Source: a virus
Lineage: Duplodnaviria > Heunggongvirae > Uroviricota > Caudoviricetes
DNA length: 64,000 nucleotides
Direction: 5' to 3' (one strand)
IMG/VR virus record: IMGVR_UViG_2724679073_000003
Part shown: piece by piece, positions 31,022 through 55,644 of the stretch
Layout of the letters: each line of letters starts with the position of its first letter
Numbering within the stretch: position 1 is the first letter of the stretch
Notes under the pieces: generated by a model
Database searches by the model: none
What the model was told of the DNA's origin: nothing
What the model saw: the letters and a program-made list of their open reading frames with translations, nothing else
Position numbers and translations under genes: made by a program

Positions 31022-31184
31022 AATAATAAATTAATTAGTACATATGCGCCATTTGATATAGCGCACATTAACATCGGGAGAATAGTCGTGTCATCCAAGG
31101 CTAATTATGAATCGCTGGCATCGATCATGCCGCGTAATGAACAGGAAACAGATGCTGTAGTGGACCCGGTAATCGCTGAAATGA

Positions 31185-32371: not shown

Positions 32372-33045
32372 TGGCACCCACAATTTATCACCGTATCGAC
32401 GGTACCAAATACAGGAATGTCTGGGTTGTTGGTGATCTGCATGGTTGCTACACCAGACTGATGTCCGAACTCCATCGTGTGGATTTTGACCCGGCGCAGG
32501 ATTTACTGATATCGGTCGGCGACCTTATCGATCGCGGTACTGAAAATGTCGAATGTCTGGAACTATTGCAGATGCCCTGGTTCAGGGCAGTGATGGGGAA
32601 CCATGAGCGGCTGATGATTGATGCGTTAAGTCCAGATGGCAACGTGAATAACTGGCTAATGAATGGCGGACAATGGTTCTTCATGCTGGACACTGATCAG
32701 GAAATATTAGCCTGGGCGCTGGTGGAGCTGGTAAAGCGTCTGCCCTATATCATTGAGTTGAACACCGGGCAAGAAACTATCGTTATAGCCCATGCCGACT
32801 ATCCGGATAATGAATACCAATTCGGTAAGGAGGTGCCGCTTTTCAACGTTGTCTGGGCGCGCGAGCGTATCAGTGATTCGATGGATGATATTGGTGGCGA
32901 AATTTCGGGCGCAGATCGTTTTATCTTTGGTCACACTCCGGTGAAAAGCCCGAAGACATTCTGGAATCAGCAGTATATCGACACTGGTGCCGTATTTTGC
33001 GGAAACCTGACATTGATGAAAGTGAAAGGTGATGGTGCAGCATGA
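32353..33045 (+). CDS. ppp: Ser/Thr protein phosphatase, lambda PPase-like
   Basis: Near-collinear match to lambda phosphatase as recalled: [64 protein letters not shown]. Confidence 0.85.
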
Positions 33046-33743
33046 AGATTGCTTTAGTTTTTCGCTCTGGTGGTGACTATAACGCTTCCGATGTGCAGTG
33101 GCTGGTTAATCAACTGCCAAAAGGCTATGAAATTATTTGCCTGACAGACCTGAAGCGTTTACATGTACCTGGCGTCAAAGTTGTCCCATTGATCAACCAG
33201 TGGCAAAAGTGCCGTGGCTGGTGGGCGAAAATCGAGTTGTTCCGACCGGATATAACAGATGATCTGTTCTATCTGGATTTGGACACAGTTATTGCCGGTG
33301 ATATACGCCCAATCCTTGAGAATCCACCAACCAGCTTCACCATGCTTAGGGATTTTTACCATCCACAATATCGTGGTAGCGGTGCCCTGTGGATACCAAA
33401 TAGTGTAAAAGCGCATATCTGGAGTTCATTCTGGCAAGATCCGGAAGGTTGGATTTCTCGTTGTGTCACTACTGAGTGCTGGGGTGATCAGGGGTTCTTA
33501 CGGAAGGTTATGGGCGATGATACACCAGCATTTCAGGATCTGTATCCAGGATGGTTTGTAAGTTACAAGGCCGATGTTGTGGAACCTGGTTCAAAATATG
33601 CGAGCGCGCGTTACTCCAGGGGGAATGGGGCATTACCAAAGGACTGCCGAATAATCTTTTTCCACGGCAAACCGCGACCTCGCGAAGTGTCAGAGGATTG
33701 GCTTCCCCTTATTAGCTCGTTTTTTGAGCGAGAATCAGAATAA
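33042..33743 (+). CDS. Putative DXD-motif (GT-A-like) glycosyltransferase
   Basis: Rossmann-like N-terminus [13 protein letters not shown] and FYLDLDTVI (DxD) motif; translationally coupled to ppp. Confidence 0.45.
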
Positions 33744-33744
33744 T

Positions 33745-33761
33745 ATTGCTCTAATAATTCC
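33745..33761 (+). promoter_or_regulatory. C1 operator (left of hairpin)
   Basis: ATTGCTCTAATAATTCC, first 13 positions match consensus. Confidence 0.6.
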
Positions 33762-33769
33762 ATATTTTT

Positions 33770-33797
33770 AAAACGTGATGTACACTCATCACGTTTT
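33770..33797. terminator. Perfect 11-bp stem hairpin with T-run (bidirectional terminator candidate)
   Basis: AAAACGTGATG-TACACT-CATCACGTTTT then TTA. Confidence 0.6.
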
Positions 33798-33810
33798 TTA
33801 TTAGAGCAAT
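33794..33810 (-). promoter_or_regulatory. C1 operator (right of hairpin, inverted orientation)
   Basis: TTTTTTATTAGAGCAAT, reverse complement ATTGCTCTAATAAAAAA. Confidence 0.6.
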
Positions 33811-33824
33811 CTACAAGGTGCACT

Positions 33825-34043
33825 ATGTGGCCATTCCGACGGAAATATCACTACTGGCTGATCGCCTTTGTTACGCCGACCGGCGGTATCAGGCATGTCA
33901 TCACCAGGTATCGCAACAAGAGACTCACCTTAGCCAGAATTTTACAGGCTGCCATAGGTGAGGGACTGGATACAAATTGCGTAGTCCTTCCTCCTTCATA
34001 CTTAGGAAAAATGACCGAAGCACAAGCTAATACGGAACTTTGA
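33825..34043 (+). CDS. Small hypothetical protein, 72 aa
   Basis: ORF downstream of operator pair. Confidence 0.3.
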   Translation: MWPFRRKYHYWLIAFVTPTGGIRHVITRYRNKRLTLARILQAAIGEGLDTNCVVLPPSYLGKMTEAQANTEL

Positions 34044-34044
34044 A

Positions 34045-35307
34045 ATGAGCACTTCAGCACAAAACCAATCAATCGAAAATGTATCTATCCCTGATGTCCT
34101 GAATGCCGGTATCCCGGCCATTATCCAGAACATCCGGGCCGCGCAACGCCGCGTTAGTTGTGATGACCTCACAGCACGTTTTTTTGATAATGCGGTTCAG
34201 TCAGCGGAGATGCTTCACGCACAGCTTATTGATGTTTATAACGCAGAAGCTGATAGCCATAACTCCCTGGTAGATGCAGCTGAAAATATGCAGTTGGATC
34301 TCGGTCTGAAGGGTAAAGAAATTGAAGAGCTTCAGCTGCAAATTGAACATTTGAAACGCCAGCAACAGGACGCGATCGACGATGCGACGCATGACGCCAA
34401 CCAGCGTGCTGATAATGCCGAACGTATAAGCATTGAGCTGGAAACAAAACTCAATGAAATGACCGCGATGGTTGAACTGCGGAACTCACAGATTTCAACG
34501 CTAAAATCTCAATATAAAGAGATCATGAAACTTGATCCTTTTAACCTTGAGAAACGCTATAACAAAGCTAAAAGCGAGCGACAGGAACTGCGTAAGCAGG
34601 TCGCCGACCTTAACCAACAGCTCAAAAAAACTATTAAAGATGCAAGCGAAGCGCGCGTGGCATTTGCTAATAAAAAAGCAGAGGTTACCGCGCTGGTTAA
34701 TGAGAATGCCAAATTTGCGACGCTCAAGAAGGAAATGTATGGCATTACTGAGCGCCGTTTCCCTGCAAGCAAACTTCATCCGACGTTAGGGCAAATCTCC
34801 TTCTTCCCGCGCCTCCTGGCTTATGGGATCTCATCGCCTAAAGAGTTCAATAACGAGCGTCCTTATATCGTTTCTAAGCTGGACTTTGCTTATCAGTTCT
34901 GCTGCGACATGGGCTATGCCATTGATATCCGGATCAACGAATGGTTGATGCCAAACTTCCAGCCGTTGGCCATTTTCCGCGAGTTCCAGCCGGAAGGTTG
35001 GGTAGAGTTCTTCCATGAATTGATCTGTAAAGAGATGGAAAGCCGCCGCCCGGAACTGGTCCGTCGAGTTGAGTGGGCGCAAGAGGTTATGTTGGCAGAG
35101 GCAGAGCTGCCGTTCGAACCGGAATTTATTGATGATCTGGCAGCTAAAGGGCTGCATACCCTGTTTGATGTGGTTACCCGCCGTCATGAGCAGTTGGTTG
35201 TCGAATTGGGTTTAGAGGAAACAGCGGCAAGAAGACTTCTCGATGTTTGCTATGCACGTAGCGATGCATGGGAAAAAGAGAACGGCGGCACTATTTACGT
35301 TCGCTGA
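34045..35307 (+). CDS. Coiled-coil protein, 420 aa
   Basis: Long heptad-rich central region. Confidence 0.55.
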   Translation: MSTSAQNQSIENVSIPDVLNAGIPAIIQNIRAAQRRVSCDDLTARFFDNAVQSAEMLHAQLIDVYNAEADSHNSLVDAAENMQLDLGLKGKEIEELQLQIEHLKRQQQDAIDDATHDANQRADNAERISIELETKLNEMTAMVELRNSQISTLKSQYKEIMKLDPFNLEKRYNKAKSERQELRKQVADLNQQLKKTIKDASEARVAFANKKAEVTALVNENAKFATLKKEMYGITERRFPASKLHPTLGQISFFPRLLAYGISSPKEFNNERPYIVSKLDFAYQFCCDMGYAIDIRINEWLMPNFQPLAIFREFQPEGWVEFFHELICKEMESRRPELVRRVEWAQEVMLAEAELPFEPEFIDDLAAKGLHTLFDVVTRRHEQLVVELGLEETAARRLLDVCYARSDAWEKENGGTIYVR

Positions 35308-35379
35308 CAGTTACAGTGTCACTTTTAATGCTGGTGGAGTGCGCCCACCAGCATTTTTTTCGTCCAATGAGGAGGGCAT

Positions 35380-35886
35380 TTGAGTATTTTCAATAAACAC
35401 GCACACCAGGAACGTCCGTATATCGTCATAGTTGATATTGATGGAACAATATCAGAGGCAACTGAAGACAGACTGCATTTGCTTCCGCCACCAGGTAAAG
35501 GTGCATTAACAAAGGACTGGAACGAGTTTAATCTCGCCTGTGACACTGATACTCCCATAACTCCAGTTATTGATATTGTGCGCCAGTTATTTAACGTTTA
35601 CACGGTCTGGTTTGTAACCGGGCGCTGTGAGATCGCAAGGGATAAAACACGAGCCTGGCTGCGGAAGTACGTAACAAACGGGGCTGAGCCTTTGCTATCT
35701 ATGCGTCCTGCCACCGATGACAGAAATGACGGCCCAGCAAAGATTGATCTCCTTAAGAAAATTGGTCTAAGTAAAATCGCGTTCGCGCTGGAAGATAAGA
35801 TTGAAGTGGCGCGTGTTTTCAGGAGGCACGGCGTGCTTACGTTAATGGTCAGGGAGTATGAAAACGCGCTTCTCCATCAACAATAA
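35380..35886 (+). CDS. HAD-superfamily phosphatase (possible pap position)
   Basis: Motif I VIVDIDGTIS; motif II VWFVTGR; lysine/aspartate motifs downstream. Confidence 0.6.
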   Translation: MSIFNKHAHQERPYIVIVDIDGTISEATEDRLHLLPPPGKGALTKDWNEFNLACDTDTPITPVIDIVRQLFNVYTVWFVTGRCEIARDKTRAWLRKYVTNGAEPLLSMRPATDDRNDGPAKIDLLKKIGLSKIAFALEDKIEVARVFRRHGVLTLMVREYENALLHQQ

Positions 35887-35902
35887 TTGCTCTAATAAAT
35901 AT
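35886..35902 (+). promoter_or_regulatory. C1 operator
   Basis: ATTGCTCTAATAAATAT 16/17. Confidence 0.7.
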
Positions 35903-36080
35903 TGATTTTTAAAACAGAGAAAGTGAAAATAAAAACATGCCGCAAGGCGCGGCATGTATCCAATCAATCACAGGAGCTGAAAATATGAACACGGCATTCA
36001 AAATCATTATGGCCGCGATCTATTTCTGGCTGTTCTCTATCACTTTTGGCGGCATCGTCGCACATGGGTAAGGGGGATGC

Positions 36081-46434: not shown

Positions 46435-46451
46435 ATTGCTCTAATGTATTG
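46435..46451 (+). promoter_or_regulatory. C1 operator upstream of lpa
   Basis: ATTGCTCTAATGTATTG, first 11 positions match consensus. Confidence 0.55.
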
Positions 46452-49740: not shown

Positions 49741-49757
49741 TTTGCTCTAATAAATTG
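49741..49757 (+). promoter_or_regulatory. C1 operator (Op51-like) heading immI-like cassette
   Basis: TTTGCTCTAATAAATTG 15/17. Confidence 0.65.
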
Positions 49758-50075: not shown

Positions 50076-50297
50076 ATGGCTACTATCCCTACCCCAACTC
50101 ATCCTGAATTTATCTGGCGCTTTTACTCCTGCCAAAAACGTCACTATCACTTCGTTATTGCACCGACAGAAGATGAGGCTCGCTCTCAGCTTCCGGATGC
50201 TCCCTGCATTTTCTCCGCCCGTTTTTCCACTGATTTGCGCAATTCTCTCAGTTACTGGTGCCTCCCTGTAAACGCTTCTGCTCAGGAGGGACTATGA
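50076..50297 (+). CDS. icd: Icd-like small protein, 73 aa, translationally coupled to ant
   Basis: RBS AAGGAGG before ATG 50076; stop overlaps ant start (ATGA). Confidence 0.6.
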   Translation: MATIPTPTHPEFIWRFYSCQKRHYHFVIAPTEDEARSQLPDAPCIFSARFSTDLRNSLSYWCLPVNASAQEGL

Positions 50298-51406
50298 GAA
50301 CGTCATTAGTCACCCGTGAAGAGATGATCGAGGCAATTGAACAGCATACCGCCTGTATCAGTACCAGGGATATACCAGGCGTTATTGCCAACTACTTCAT
50401 GATCACCAAACAACTTTACCGGAGAAAGGACAAAAACGCGGTTCACCGCATTCTGCTAACCGATATCCGTGAATACCTGCTCGAACAGGGTCATCTGAAT
50501 TACGCAACCGTCGCAGCCGAAGCACGCAAGGAGGCACACAGAATGAAAGCAACTAACGTTAAATCAGAAAAAATTTATGCACCTTCAGTTCAGGAATCGG
50601 AACTGGTGGTTGTTCAGAATCAGCCGGATGAAATTCCCGTTCTGGAGTGGCAGGGGGTGCGTGTAGTGACAACCGAGACTCTTGCTAGAGGGTATGGGAC
50701 CGAAACTAATAACATCAAAGTTAACTATACGCGTAATGCTGATCGCTTTGAGGAAGGTAAACATTACTTTCTACTAACTGGTTCAAAATTAAAAGAATTG
50801 AAGGACAAGGTTACTCAAAGTAACTTAGTCGCACCGCGAGCAAAGCACCTCACTCTCTGGACGGAACGCGGCGCAGCCCGCCACGCTAAAATGCTCGAAA
50901 CCGATCAGGCATGGGCATTCTTTGAAAAACTGGAAGACAGCTACTTCCGGCAAAAAGAACAGCAACCGGTTGCAATCCCCCAGACGCTTCCAGAAGCTCT
51001 GCGCCTGGCTGCCGAACTGGCTGAACAAAAGCAGCTTCTGGAACAGAAAGCCCACCAGCTAAATCAGCAGCTGGTGGCCGCCGCTCCTAAAGTCGATTTT
51101 GCCGACCGGGTATCAGTAGCTAAAGGGATCCTGATTGGGAATTTTGCAAAGGTTGTTGGACTTAAGCAAAACGCGCTGTTTGTCTGGTTACGGGAGAACG
51201 GCATCCTGATAGCGTCCGGTGGACGTAAAAATGTGCCGTTCCAGCAGTACATCAACGCGGGGTATTTCACGGTGAAAGAAGTGGTACTGGATGATGAAGA
51301 TGGCTACCAGATACGGTTGACGCCTCAATTAACGGGTAAAGGCCAGCAGTGGTTGACGCGTAAACTGCTCGATGCTGGCTTGTTAAAACCGGTGGCGGCT
51401 GAATAA
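50294..51406 (+). CDS. ant: Antirepressor Ant, second copy, KilAC C-terminal domain
   Basis: RBS AGGAGGG before ATG 50294; C-terminal 170 aa nearly identical to the ant at the window start. Confidence 0.8.
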   Translation: MRTSLVTREEMIEAIEQHTACISTRDIPGVIANYFMITKQLYRRKDKNAVHRILLTDIREYLLEQGHLNYATVAAEARKEAHRMKATNVKSEKIYAPSVQESELVVVQNQPDEIPVLEWQGVRVVTTETLARGYGTETNNIKVNYTRNADRFEEGKHYFLLTGSKLKELKDKVTQSNLVAPRAKHLTLWTERGAARHAKMLETDQAWAFFEKLEDSYFRQKEQQPVAIPQTLPEALRLAAELAEQKQLLEQKAHQLNQQLVAAAPKVDFADRVSVAKGILIGNFAKVVGLKQNALFVWLRENGILIASGGRKNVPFQQYINAGYFTVKEVVLDDEDGYQIRLTPQLTGKGQQWLTRKLLDAGLLKPVAAE

Positions 51407-51438: not shown

Positions 51439-52290
51439 TTATTGCGCGCTTTCGGGGTTGTCGTTTACTGGCTGCCCCTTCTTGGTTTTACGGCTGCGCG
51501 TAACTGATGCGGCTGATTTGACCTTTTTCTCTTCGCGAGTGATGGCAATTTGTTTTTTTACATTTTCAATATCTGCCAGGCGATATATTTTTGCTTGCGG
51601 CCAGCGGTCGCAGATGATCGGTTCTATGGAGTCATAAAGGCTAAATTTTGCTTTTTCGAATTCACCGTTGATGATAATTCCATCACGGAGAGTTTCATCG
51701 CAGATAAACACGCCACACAGCGGCACATGGTAACTAACTGATTTACCGTTATTGTAGTTAGGACTACTGGAGATGTAGTGAACGCGCAGCATTGTTTCGC
51801 TAAAGCCGTGTACGCGCATACGGAATTTTTCATCCTCCGGGTACTGCTTCATTAGCTCTTTTGTTGCTTCCAGGTTCTCTATGTATTTCGCACTGTGCTC
51901 ATTGAACCCCGCGCTTTTTTGGATGCGAATGTCCTTATCAATCAGATGAATAATGCGGCCAGCGGTCATGTTGACGCTGTTCACAGCTTCTGTCTGATAA
52001 GTTGTAACCTTGCGCACACCGCGAAGGATGTTAGGCACTGGATATAAAATAGTCTTTGGGATATTGAGGTCTGGGTACTGTTCCAGTTCCCGCGCCATTA
52101 AAGTCCATTTATCAATTTCAGCCTGAATGCTGTCAGTTTCTTTGAACGGTAGAACGACAACCGGGCGTACAGGACGACCGTCGCTGGCTGTATCAACGTG
52201 TTGGGCGCGTGCAACAGCTTTTTTTAGAAAGAGATCCCTGAAGCTGACGAACTCCTGGTACAGTTGTTCGCCGTAGACATAATTTATCAT
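51439..52290 (-). CDS. c1: C1 repressor of lysis, 283 aa
   Basis: Begins MINYVYGEQLYQEFVSFRDLFLKK..., recognised as P1 C1; same length. Confidence 0.95.
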   Translation of the reverse strand: MINYVYGEQLYQEFVSFRDLFLKKAVARAQHVDTASDGRPVRPVVVLPFKETDSIQAEIDKWTLMARELEQYPDLNIPKTILYPVPNILRGVRKVTTYQTEAVNSVNMTAGRIIHLIDKDIRIQKSAGFNEHSAKYIENLEATKELMKQYPEDEKFRMRVHGFSETMLRVHYISSSPNYNNGKSVSYHVPLCGVFICDETLRDGIIINGEFEKAKFSLYDSIEPIICDRWPQAKIYRLADIENVKKQIAITREEKKVKSAASVTRSRKTKKGQPVNDNPESAQ

Positions 52291-54967: not shown

Positions 54968-54997
54968 ATTGCTCTAATTGATTGCTATAATTGAGTC
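54968..54997 (+). promoter_or_regulatory. Tandem overlapping C1 operators upstream of ref (Op2-like)
   Basis: ATTGCTCTAATTGATTGCTATAATTG. Confidence 0.6.
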
Positions 54998-55083
54998 GCA
55001 GTTTTTGTCAACTACGAAGACGTTGCCATTACTTCACTCCTTGACATCATAGGCGGCCATTAGGCCGCCTTTTTTTTGACCAT

Positions 55084-55644
55084 ATGAAAACAATCGAACA
55101 AAAAATTGAACAGTGCCGCAAGTGGCAGAAGGCAGCCAGAGAACGAGCGATCGCTCGGCAACGGGAGAAGTTGGCTGATCCGGTCTGGCGAGAATCTCAA
55201 TATCAGAAAATGCGGGATACTATCGACCGCCGTATCGCTAAACAGAAAGAGCGCCCACCAGCCAGCAAAACGCGGAAAAGCGCGGTAAAAATAAAATCTC
55301 GTGGCTTGAAGGGGAGAACACCAACGGCGGAGGAACGGCGCATCGCCAATGCTCTTGGCACTCTCCCCTGCATTGCCTGCTATATGCATGGAGTAATATC
55401 TAATGAGGTGTCTCTGCACCATATCGCCGGTCGTACCGCGCCGGGTTGTCATAAAAAGCAATTGCCACTTTGTAGATGGCACCACCAGCATGCAGCACCG
55501 GCTGAAGTAAGAGCAAAATACCCCTGGCTGGTCCCTGTTCATGCCGATGGTGTGGTTGGAGGCAAGAAAGAATTCACCCTGCTGAACAAGTCAGAGATGG
55601 AGTTACTGGCTGACGCCTATGAGATGGCAAACATCATGCACTAA
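55084..55644 (+). CDS. ref: Ref recombination enhancement HNH endonuclease, 186 aa
   Basis: HNH-like CIACYMHGVISNEVSLHHIAGR ... CRWHHQ; length equals P1 Ref. Confidence 0.8.
   Translation: MKTIEQKIEQCRKWQKAARERAIARQREKLADPVWRESQYQKMRDTIDRRIAKQKERPPASKTRKSAVKIKSRGLKGRTPTAEERRIANALGTLPCIACYMHGVISNEVSLHHIAGRTAPGCHKKQLPLCRWHHQHAAPAEVRAKYPWLVPVHADGVVGGKKEFTLLNKSEMELLADAYEMANIMH

What the first reader, a model, noticed from the sequence alone, without database searches (positions are those of the whole stretch)
33745..33810. Two inverted C1 operators flanking a perfect 11-bp-stem hairpin
ATTGCTCTAATAATT - hairpin AAAACGTGATG/CATCACGTTTT - AATTGCTCTAATAAAAAA (inverted). This symmetric operator-terminator-operator module between the ppp operon and the downstream operon could allow repressor-dependent looping or control of termination and read-through.
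Basis: seen in the sequence. Interest (0 to 1): 0.45.

Follow-up and report, generated by a model that had tools for sequence, protein, structure and literature searches.

The report
Documented P1 Op86 operator pair
The two inverted repressor sites and the hairpin are real. They are the pmgR control region already annotated in phage P1 (operators Op86a/b), so the finding is ordinary, apart from a likely correction of where the promoter's -10 box lies.

Summary
The window is the P1-like phage-plasmid RCS47. Two C1-operator 17-mers lie at 33745-33761 (+) and 33794-33810 (-), each with a perfect 13-nt core. A perfect 11-bp hairpin lies at 33770-33797. All of it sits between the pmgQ stop codon and the pmgR start codon.

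The finding meets its own refutation clause. The P1 GenBank record annotates these sites as OpmgRa/OpmgRb (former Op86a/b) with a predicted promoter PpmgR. P7 annotates them as Op(sht[a])/Op(sht[b]).

Comparison with divergent relatives (PmgR 72-84% identical) shows a fixed 66-bp module. The hairpin stem changes sequence but keeps pairing, and only on the + strand RNA. That fits an intrinsic terminator for the upstream pmgN-pmgQ operon.

The hairpin loop is an invariant TAnnnT. It lies 16 nt after a -35-like hexamer that overlaps the end of operator a, which is the geometry of the documented Olpa/Plpa. I therefore propose that the loop is the true -10 of PpmgR. The two operators would then cover about -48..-32 and +2..+18, bracketing RNA polymerase. 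The annotated -10 (TAAAAC) is not conserved.

Looping, or repressor control of termination, is not supported. No transcript ends or C1 binding could be tested here.

The parts
33042..33743 (+). pmgQ (glycosyltransferase-like), last gene of the overlapping pmgN-pmgO-pmgP-ppp-pmgQ gene string. Its stop codon TAA is at 33741-33743.
   Evidence: ORF list. P1 and RCS47 annotation. phrog_1962, E 4.9e-128.
33745..33761 (+). C1 operator a = OpmgRa (former Op86a): ATTGCTCTAATAATTCC.
   Evidence: Consensus match. Annotated protein_bind at P1 82152-82168 and in P7. The core varies at 3 of 689 nucleotide positions compared in 53 gene-anchored metagenome loci.
33746..33774 (+). PpmgR as predicted in the P1 record: -35 TTGCTC (33746-33751), -10 TAAAAC (33769-33774). 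I consider this register unlikely.
   Evidence: labelled 'predicted sigma 70 promoter'. The -10 lacks the T at its last position. Its second position (A-11) is G in 6 of 26 distinct module variants (column 26).
33759..33764 (+). Proposed -35 hexamer (TCCATA here; TTTACT, TTCAAT, TTTAAT or TTCATT in relatives). It starts at operator offset 14 and overlaps the operator's last 3 bases.
   Evidence: Hexamer scan in 13 lineages. Same offset as the -35 of documented Plpa and Pc1.
33770..33797 (+). Hairpin: 11-bp stem (33770-33780 with 33787-33797) and a 6-nt loop. With the T-run 33794-33799 it is the inferred intrinsic terminator of the pmgN-pmgQ operon.
   Evidence: All 11 pairs vary somewhere, 3 pairs show double compensatory changes, and 96.5% of cells are paired. 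There are 26 G.U against 4 C.A cells, and the + strand RNA stays at -13.4 to -16.5 kcal/mol in the divergent lineages while the - strand falls to -5.8.
33781..33786 (+). Hairpin loop TACACT = proposed -10 hexamer of PpmgR (TATCAT or TATTAT in relatives). The predicted start is near G33793.
   Evidence: T, A and the final T are invariant in 26 distinct variants, and only the three middle positions vary. It is the only candidate among the top scorers in all 13 lineages, 9/12 in 6 of them. No variation at 318 nucleotide positions compared in the P1 lineage. The start site is inferred, not mapped.
33794..33810 (-). C1 operator b = OpmgRb (former Op86b): ATTGCTCTAATAAAAAA. Its 3' tail is the terminator's T-run. 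It would cover about +2..+18 of the proposed promoter.
   Evidence: It varies at 1 of 901 nucleotide positions compared in gene-anchored loci, against 53 of 742 in the 14-nt leader that follows.
33811..33824 (+). Leader with a Shine-Dalgarno-like AAGG. This is the most variable stretch of the intergenic region.
33825..34043 (+). pmgR (72 aa). It is essential in P1; its deletion gives unjoined heads and tails.
   Evidence: PMC9024508.
34045..35307 (+). pmgS (420 aa), second gene of the unit.
   Evidence: phrog_1660 'PmgS-like head morphogenesis'.
35327..35360 (+). Strong terminator-like hairpin plus T-run after pmgS. It closes the two-gene pmgR-pmgS unit.
   Evidence: 11 pairs, 6 of them G-C, tail TTTTT.
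51439..52290 (-). c1, the cognate repressor gene, encoded in the same window.
   Evidence: 279/283 residues identical to P1 C1.100.

Best explanation
This is the control region of the pmgR-pmgS unit of a P1-type phage-plasmid. It is the already annotated operator pair OpmgRa/OpmgRb (Op86a/b).

The fixed 66-bp module carries three overlapping signals:
1. A weak sigma-70 promoter. Its -35 (33759-33764) overlaps the 3' end of operator a. Its -10, as I propose, is the hairpin loop (33781-33786), so transcription would start near G33793.
2. Two monomer-binding C1 operators in inverted orientation. They would cover about -48..-32 and +2..+18, the two ends of the RNA-polymerase footprint, and shut the promoter in the lysogen.
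3. An RNA hairpin plus U-run (33770-33799). It forms only in transcripts arriving from the upstream pmgN-pmgQ operon and terminates them. Transcripts started at PpmgR lack the 5' arm and so escape it.

Shown here: the presence of the sites, their orthology to the annotated sites, their conservation, the compensatory and strand-specific conservation of the hairpin, and the promoter geometry.
Inferred: C1 binding here, the start site, and termination.
For: Identity of the region: 100% to RCS47 and 99% to P1 and P7. P1 and P7 annotate both operators at the orthologous bases. C1 is encoded in the window.

Fixed length: the module is exactly 66 nt in 26 of 29 distinct variants; of the other three, two carry a one-base insertion in a homopolymer run and L130 one inside operator b. 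These include lineages with only 72-84% PmgR identity that were found by gene, not by operator.

Hairpin: none of the 11 pairs is invariant, yet 96.5% of cells are paired. Three pairs carry double changes (G-C to A-U, A-U to G-C). Locus L141 has a re-registered stem that still folds at -16.5 kcal/mol.

Strand asymmetry: 26 G.U against 4 C.A cells. The - strand energy collapses to -5.8 kcal/mol in several lineages. This argues for a + strand RNA structure. It lies 27 nt after the pmgQ stop and is followed by T6.

Promoter:
- The loop keeps T-A-n-n-n-T while all three n positions vary.
- -35 at offset 14, a 16-nt spacer and -10 at offset 36 scores among the best in all 13 lineages and is the only candidate that does so throughout: 9/12 in six, 8/12 in six, 7/12 in the P1 type.
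- Documented Plpa has the same offsets, 14 and 36 (TTGCTA, 16 nt, TATTAT). Pc1 has its -35 at offset 14.

Population data: loop 0 of 318, operator b 1 of 901, operator a core 3 of 689 and leader 53 of 742 nucleotide positions differ from the consensus.

Unit boundary: a strong terminator after pmgS delimits a two-gene unit.
Against: - No experimental data on C1 binding, transcript 5' ends or 3' ends for this region could be reached. The P1 genome paper was not readable.
- In the P1/RCS47 lineage itself the proposed promoter is weak (7/12; -35 TCCATA is 3/6). It ties in match count with the annotated register.
- The hairpin core is modest (7 bp with 4 G-C pairs, -13.4 kcal/mol including the A-U pairs). 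The consensus terminator scan did not call it.
- The TAnnnT pattern rests on few independent lineages. The chance that the three variable loop positions are exactly the n positions is about 1 in 20.
- Relatedness of the sequences inflates the covariation counts.
Confidence: 0.6

Rival explanations
1. Annotated model. PpmgR uses -35 TTGCTC inside operator a and -10 TAAAAC (33769-33774), starting at about 33781 in the loop. The hairpin is only the upstream operon's terminator, or incidental.
For: This is the prediction in AF234172. The analogous P2pmgT prediction at Op88 uses the same hexamers. Its match count in P1 (7/12) equals that of the loop model.
Against: TAAAAC lacks the nearly invariant T at -7. 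In relatives the hexamer is TGAAGC, TAAAGC or TGAGGC, so the critical A-11 position is G in 6 of 26 variants, and those changes are explained by G.U pairing in the stem. It fails the A2/T6 filter in every lineage. The record labels it 'predicted'.
Confidence: 0.2
2. First reader's model. The two operators let C1 (with Lxc) loop the DNA, or modulate termination and read-through at the hairpin, coupling the upstream and downstream operons.
For: Two operators flank a terminator-like hairpin, and operator b contains the T-run. [quoted passage not shown] C1-mediated looping in the immC region of P1 is reported, from my own knowledge, not verified here.
Against: The centre-to-centre distance is 49 bp, about 4.7 helical turns. 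That is very short and out of phase for a loop. The operators sit at the two ends of an RNA-polymerase footprint around a promoter-like site, which explains them without looping. The P1 record also places a C1 operator (Oppp) at the upstream operon's predicted promoter, so when C1 is bound few upstream transcripts should exist to be regulated.
Confidence: 0.07
3. Leader-attenuator model. A promoter whose -10 is the AATAAT inside operator a starts upstream of the hairpin. The hairpin would then be an attenuator in the pmgR leader, as reported for the P1 ref gene.
For: AATAAT at operator offset 8 scores 7-8/12 with upstream hexamers in several lineages. The ref region in this window shows an operator, TATAAT and a strong leader terminator before the ATG. 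The title of Windle et al. [quoted passage not shown]
Against: The -35 candidates (GCGAGA, GTGAAT, AAGCGA) are poor, not conserved, and lie in pmgQ coding sequence. AATAAT belongs to every C1 operator, so it is not specific evidence. No antiterminator alternative structure is evident. The fold of the 76-nt region gives only the hairpin plus operator-arm pairing.
Confidence: 0.08
4. The inner inverted repeat is a DNA palindrome bound by a dimeric protein, or a - strand terminator, rather than a + strand RNA hairpin.
For: The palindrome is perfect in the P1 type and is equally stable on both strands there.
Against: The stem sequence differs between lineages (CGTGATG, CATGGTG, CGGCATG), which a sequence-specific site would not tolerate. 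The wobble changes are G.U on the + strand (26 against 4), so the - strand or duplex palindrome is broken in most divergent lineages (-5.8 against -14 kcal/mol). No co-directional gene ends here on the - strand.
Confidence: 0.05

Closest known systems
P1 OpmgRa/OpmgRb (former Op86a/Op86b) with predicted PpmgR; P7 Op(sht[a])/Op(sht[b])
   Same: Orthologous bases. The 66-bp module is identical in P1, P7 and RCS47. Orientation, flanking genes pmgQ and pmgR, and the stated role ('controls expression of pmgR and pmgS') are all the same.
   Different: Nothing differs in the operators. The records do not annotate the hairpin or terminator. They place the predicted -10 twelve bases upstream of where comparative data put it.
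P1 Olpa/Plpa (Op94/P94) and Oc1a/Pc1 promoter-operator modules
   Same: A single asymmetric C1 operator whose 3' end overlaps the -35 (offset 14), with the -10 at offset 36 (Plpa) or 38 (Pc1). The operator begins 1-2 nt after the preceding stop codon.
   Different: Those modules have no second inverted operator downstream of the start, and no hairpin wrapped around the -10.
Bivalent C1 operators of P1 (Op72a/b at ban, Oc1ab)
   Same: Two inverted 17-mers act on one promoter.
   Different: In bivalent operators the two 17-mers overlap, with starts 11 bp apart (window 20156/20167). Here they are 49 bp apart and have a promoter and a hairpin between them.
P1 ref promoter-operator with leader attenuator
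   Same: A C1 operator, a promoter and an intrinsic-terminator hairpin packed into one short intergenic region.
   Different: At ref the terminator lies well downstream of the promoter, in the leader just before the ATG. Here the hairpin arms flank the proposed -10, so the unit's own transcript cannot form it.
Canonical Rho-independent terminators with A-tract/U-tract arms
   Same: A G+C-containing stem, a 6-nt loop, a U6 tail and an upstream A-tract that extends the stem.
   Different: The loop doubles as a -10-like hexamer, and the U-tract doubles as the tail of a repressor operator.

Membership tests
P1-type C1-controlled operator | Match to the asymmetric 17-bp consensus ATTGCTCTAATAAATTT (consensus as quoted in PMC8546580) | tested here: met
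   Both sites have 3 mismatches, all in positions 14-17, and positions 1-13 are perfect. The window holds 14 sites against 0.38 expected.
P1-type C1-controlled operator | Orthology to sites annotated as C1 protein_bind features in reference genomes | tested here: met
   AF234172 82152-82168 and 82201-82217. AF503408 84533-84549 and 84582-84598.
P1-type C1-controlled operator | Cognate C1 repressor encoded by the same element | tested here: met
   Window 51439-52290 (-) is 279/283 identical to P1 C1.100.
P1-type C1-controlled operator | Sequence constraint beyond the neighbouring non-coding DNA | tested here: met
   Operator b differs at 1 of 901, the operator a core at 3 of 689 and the leader at 53 of 742 nucleotide positions compared. 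Both are retained in lineages with 72-84% PmgR identity.
P1-type C1-controlled operator | Binding of purified C1 (EMSA or footprint) | not testable with these tools
   The name 'former Op86a/b' in the P1 record does not show whether binding was measured, and the primary papers could not be read.
Rho-independent (intrinsic) terminator | Stable stem-loop directly followed by a U-run on the transcribed strand, downstream of a co-directional gene | tested here: met
   Core stem CGUGAUG/CAUCACG, then U6, 27 nt after the pmgQ stop. -13.4 kcal/mol, z -5.
Rho-independent (intrinsic) terminator | Detection by the consensus terminator scan | tested here: not met
   Not listed. The likely reason is that the scan extends the stem through the four A-U pairs, which leaves TTATTAGA as the tail.
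Rho-independent (intrinsic) terminator | Pairing maintained by compensatory and wobble changes on the RNA strand | tested here: met
   Three pairs have double changes, no pair is invariant, 96.5% of cells are paired, and slid controls give 41-58%. 26 G.U against 4 C.A.
Rho-independent (intrinsic) terminator | Mapped RNA 3' ends or termination in vitro | not testable with these tools
   No Term-seq or 3'-RACE data for P1 were found.
Sigma-70 promoter (proposed register: -35 33759-33764, -10 33781-33786) | -35 and -10 hexamers with a 16-18 nt spacer, with A at position 2 and T at position 6 of the -10 | tested here: inconclusive
   7/12 in the P1 type and 8-9/12 in the 12 other lineages examined, always at the same offsets. 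The generic scan threshold of 9/12 is not reached in the window itself.
Sigma-70 promoter (proposed register: -35 33759-33764, -10 33781-33786) | Mapped transcription start | not testable with these tools
   No start-site data were found. PpmgR is only 'predicted' in the P1 record.
Repressor-mediated DNA loop between operators | Operators separated by a loopable, helically phased distance | tested here: not met
   49 bp centre to centre (33753 to 33802), about 4.7 turns. The spacing is fixed at this value in 26 of 29 distinct variants.

The most novel reading that the evidence does not exclude
The module is a conserved 'promoter inside a terminator'. The -10 hexamer of PpmgR is the loop of the upstream operon's terminator hairpin. 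The termination point and the next start site coincide within a few bases. The U-run is at once the terminator tail, the initially transcribed sequence (GUUUUUU) and the tail of the downstream operator. This would correct the published PpmgR prediction. It would also give a compact, testable example of triple-coded regulatory DNA that insulates two repressor-controlled operons.
Probability: 0.4. Interest if true: 0.35.

Novelty: already known. Interest (0 to 1): 0.15.

Why it matters
The finding as stated matters little. The operator pair has been in the P1 and P7 reference annotations since 2003-2004.

The residual value is a refinement. pmgR is an essential head-completion gene (PMC9024508) whose promoter has only been predicted. 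Comparative data suggest the prediction is in the wrong register, and that a terminator is built around the -10.

The module occurs in about 12% of complete E. coli genomes (673 of 5426), on P1-like phage-plasmids that often carry resistance genes. Correct transcription-unit boundaries are therefore useful for annotating and engineering these elements, but they do not open a new question.

Tried and rejected
- Literature. Searches for Op86 found nothing. The P1 genome paper (three identifiers) and the ref paper are not held. A search on operator names returned only noise.
- Rfam. A scan of 33500-34100 at E up to 1 gave no match.
- Genome search. A genome-contig scan with PmgS gave only two near-identical loci. 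Divergent relatives came instead from a PmgR protein search followed by contig look-ups.
- Plasmids. A search with the JK004 version found no closer relatives of that lineage.
- Late (Lpa-dependent) promoter. The -22 boxes of LPhot and LPpac (AAGTTACTT, ATGTGACTT) have no counterpart in the module.
- Outer 13-bp 'helix' formed by the two operator cores. Ten of 13 pairs are invariant, and the variable positions include C.A and other mismatches. It is a by-product of two protein sites, not an RNA structure under selection.
- Leftward promoter from operator b. No TAnnnT lies at offsets 25-49 on the - strand.
- P1 record features. The record lists no terminator between 78.9 and 94.8 kb, not even at the position of the strong post-pmgS hairpin. 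The absence of a terminator feature at the pmgQ-pmgR junction is therefore uninformative.
- My own error. I first took window 49741 for Olpa. One search showed that Olpa is at 46435.

Full report
**What the window is.** Bases 33000-34600 are 100% identical to Escherichia phage RCS47 (a P1-like phage-plasmid) and 99% identical to P1 and P7. The finding lies in the 81-nt gap between the stop codon of pmgQ (33741-33743) and the ATG of pmgR (33825). pmgQ is the last gene of a string of overlapping genes, pmgN-pmgO-pmgP-ppp-pmgQ. pmgR and pmgS follow and are closed by a strong terminator-like hairpin at 35327-35355. The cognate repressor gene c1 is in the same window (51439-52290, - strand) and is 279/283 identical to P1 C1.100.

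**Check of the observation.**
- Operator-like 17-mers lie at 33745-33761 (+, ATTGCTCTAATAATTCC) and 33794-33810 (-, ATTGCTCTAATAAAAAA). Each has three mismatches to ATTGCTCTAATAAATTT, all in the last four positions. That consensus is the one quoted in PMC8546580.
- The two 13-nt cores are perfect inverted repeats, and the inner 11-nt arms (33770-33780 and 33787-33797) are perfectly complementary around a 6-nt loop.
- The window has 14 consensus matches against 0.38 expected.
- The hairpin folds at -13.4 kcal/mol, z = -5.

The corrections are minor. The module is not symmetric: 12 nt lie between operator a and the stem, while operator b overlaps the 3' arm by 4 nt.

**It is already documented.** The P1 record AF234172 annotates 'monovalent C1-controlled operator OpmgRa; corresponds to former Op86a; controls expression of pmgR and pmgS' at 82152-82168. 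It annotates OpmgRb (former Op86b) at 82201-82217 on the opposite strand. It also gives a predicted sigma-70 promoter PpmgR, with -35 at 82153-82158 and -10 at 82176-82181. These are exactly the window positions shifted by 48407. P7 annotates Op(sht[a]) and Op(sht[b]) at the same bases. The 66-bp module is identical in P1, P7 and RCS47. A published P1 genome map also marks operators 'patterned if C1 binds at dual sites' (PMC8201110).

**What more can be said: comparative data.** I collected the module in three ways.
- An operator-anchored pattern scan of viral contigs returned 120 stretches.
- A gene-anchored search started from PmgR. A protein search gave clusters at 72-84% identity from Salmonella, Cronobacter and metagenomes, and their contigs were fetched. 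Cronobacter phage JK004 was added.
- A gene-anchored metagenome scan gave 56 loci.

Every locus that covers the region carries the module. It is exactly 66 nt long in 26 of 29 distinct variants. Of the three exceptions, two carry a single-base insertion in a homopolymer run, and L130 carries one inside operator b. Within the P1 lineage (53 gene-anchored loci) the counts of nucleotide positions that differ from the consensus are 0 of 318 in the loop, 1 of 901 in operator b, 3 of 689 in the operator a core, and 53 of 742 in the 14-nt leader after operator b. The module occurs in 673 of 5426 complete E. coli genomes, almost always on plasmids.

**The hairpin is a + strand RNA structure.** Across 26 distinct variants none of the 11 stem pairs is invariant, yet 96.5% of cells pair. 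Three pairs show double changes, G-C to A-U at pair 31/48 and A-U to G-C at pairs 34/45 and 29/50. Slid controls pair at only 41-58%.
- The P1 type has AAAACGTGATG/CATCACGTTTT.
- Salmonella types have AAAACATGGTG/CACCATGTTTT.
- JK004 has GAAGCATGGTG/CGCCATGTTTT.
- L141 has re-registered the stem (CGGCATG/CATGCCG) and still folds at -16.5 kcal/mol.

One-sided changes are overwhelmingly G.U on the + strand, 26 cells against 4 C.A. The + strand RNA therefore stays at -13.4 to -16.5 kcal/mol in all divergent lineages, while the - strand drops as low as -5.8. This excludes a sequence-specific DNA palindrome and a - strand terminator. A hairpin 27 nt after a stop codon and followed by U6 is most simply the intrinsic terminator of the pmgN-pmgQ operon. 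That is an inference, because no 3' ends are available. The outer 'helix' formed by the operator cores shows conservation, not covariation (10 of 13 pairs invariant).

**Where the promoter is.** The annotated -10 (TAAAAC, 33769-33774) lacks the final T. In relatives it reads TGAAGC, TAAAGC or TGAGGC. Its key second position is G in 6 of 26 variants, and those changes are explained by G.U pairing in the stem.

By contrast the hairpin loop reads TACACT, TATCAT, TATTAT or TACGCT. T, A and the last T are invariant, and exactly the three middle positions vary. A hexamer scan in 13 lineages places one candidate among the top scorers everywhere, and no other candidate recurs in all of them: -35 at operator offset 14, a 16-nt spacer, and -10 at offset 36. 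It scores 9/12 in six lineages (TTTACT, 16 nt, TATCAT or TATTAT), 8/12 in six, and 7/12 in the P1 type.

These are the offsets of the documented Plpa behind Olpa (window 46435: TTGCTA at 14, TATTAT at 36). Pc1 behind Oc1a also has its -35 at offset 14.

With this register the start falls near the conserved G33793. Operator a then covers about -48..-32 and operator b about +2..+18, so the two operators bracket the span that RNA polymerase occupies on a promoter (a span known from general knowledge). A transcript started there lacks the 5' arm of the hairpin and cannot terminate at it. Its leader shows no significant structure (fifth fold).

In the P1 lineage itself the promoter is weak, and the two registers tie on match count. 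I give the loop register about 0.55-0.6.

**Rivals.**
The centre-to-centre distance is a fixed 49 bp. The P1 record also places a C1 operator (Oppp, former Op83) at the upstream operon's predicted promoter. Promoter occlusion explains both sites.
- A leader-attenuator arrangement like that of the P1 ref gene is visible in this window at 54968-55085. Here it would need a promoter upstream of 33770, and the only candidates use the AATAAT present in every operator together with poor, unconserved -35 hexamers.
- No late-promoter -22 box is present.
- There is no Rfam match.

**Function of the controlled genes.** pmgR is essential in P1, and its deletion gives unjoined heads and tails (PMC9024508). 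pmgS belongs to a 'PmgS-like head morphogenesis' family. P7 names the pair shtA and shtB.

**Verdict.** Two points are new and modest: comparative support for a + strand terminator hairpin, and a probable re-assignment of the PpmgR -10 to the hairpin loop. Both need 5' and 3' end mapping.

Noticed in passing
window 49741-49757 and 50258-51406: A C1-operator-like site (TTTGCTCTAATAAATTG, 2 mismatches) lies 3 nt after the pacB stop codon. It has the usual promoter geometry (TTGTGT at offset 14, TTACAT/TACATT at 36/37). It heads a roughly 1.7-kb segment between pacB and c1 that P1 lacks, and that segment encodes a 382-aa protein with ORF6N and ANT/KilAC antirepressor domains. This may be an extra C1-controlled antirepressor cassette in RCS47.
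   Followed up: partly
window 54968-55085: The ref control region. An operator (ATTGCTCTAATTGATTG) runs into a TATAAT and is followed by a strong leader hairpin, GGCGGCC-ATTA-GGCCGCC plus T8, ending 7 nt before the ATG. This matches the 'promoter-operator and attenuator' control in the title of Windle et al. 1988, cited in PMC10695390.
   Followed up: no
window 35886-35960: Op88 (OpmgT) starts at the last base of the pap stop codon. It shares the motif ATTTTTAAAAC with the Op86a module. It is followed by a 10-bp G+C-rich hairpin (35935-35957) that the scan scores as a - strand terminator, although the flanking annotated genes (pap, pmgT) are on the + strand.
   Followed up: no
window 31028-31044 (P1 79435-79451): The operator annotated in P1 as Oppp (former Op83) already has 4 mismatches to the consensus in P1 (CATGCACTAATTAATTT). 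It has about 5 in RCS47 (TATGTACTAATTAATTT), so the 3-mismatch search missed it. A better site (ATTGCACTAATAATTTT, - strand) lies 900 bp upstream at 30121-30137.
   Followed up: partly
plasmid hits H55-H59 relative to window 33450-34150: In several P1-like plasmids homology begins only at window position 33566 (inside pmgQ), and in one plasmid at 33857 (inside pmgR). These are mosaic junctions close to the module.
   Followed up: no
L130 (GCA_045575315.1 contig JBIGSS010000005.1), 2420-2500: This copy has a one-base insertion inside operator b (TTATTAGAAACAA) and fragmented neighbouring genes. It looks like a decaying P1-like prophage.
   Followed up: no
MH160767.1 / NC_050153.1 (phage vB_EcoM-Ro157c2YLVW), pmgR homologue: The 72-aa PmgR gene is annotated there as 'L: RNA-directed RNA polymerase L', an evident annotation error.
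   Followed up: no
window 33793-33799: If transcription starts at G33793, the initially transcribed sequence is GUUUUUU. Sequences of this kind can cause reiterative (slippage) transcription at some E. coli promoters (my own knowledge, not tested).
   Followed up: no
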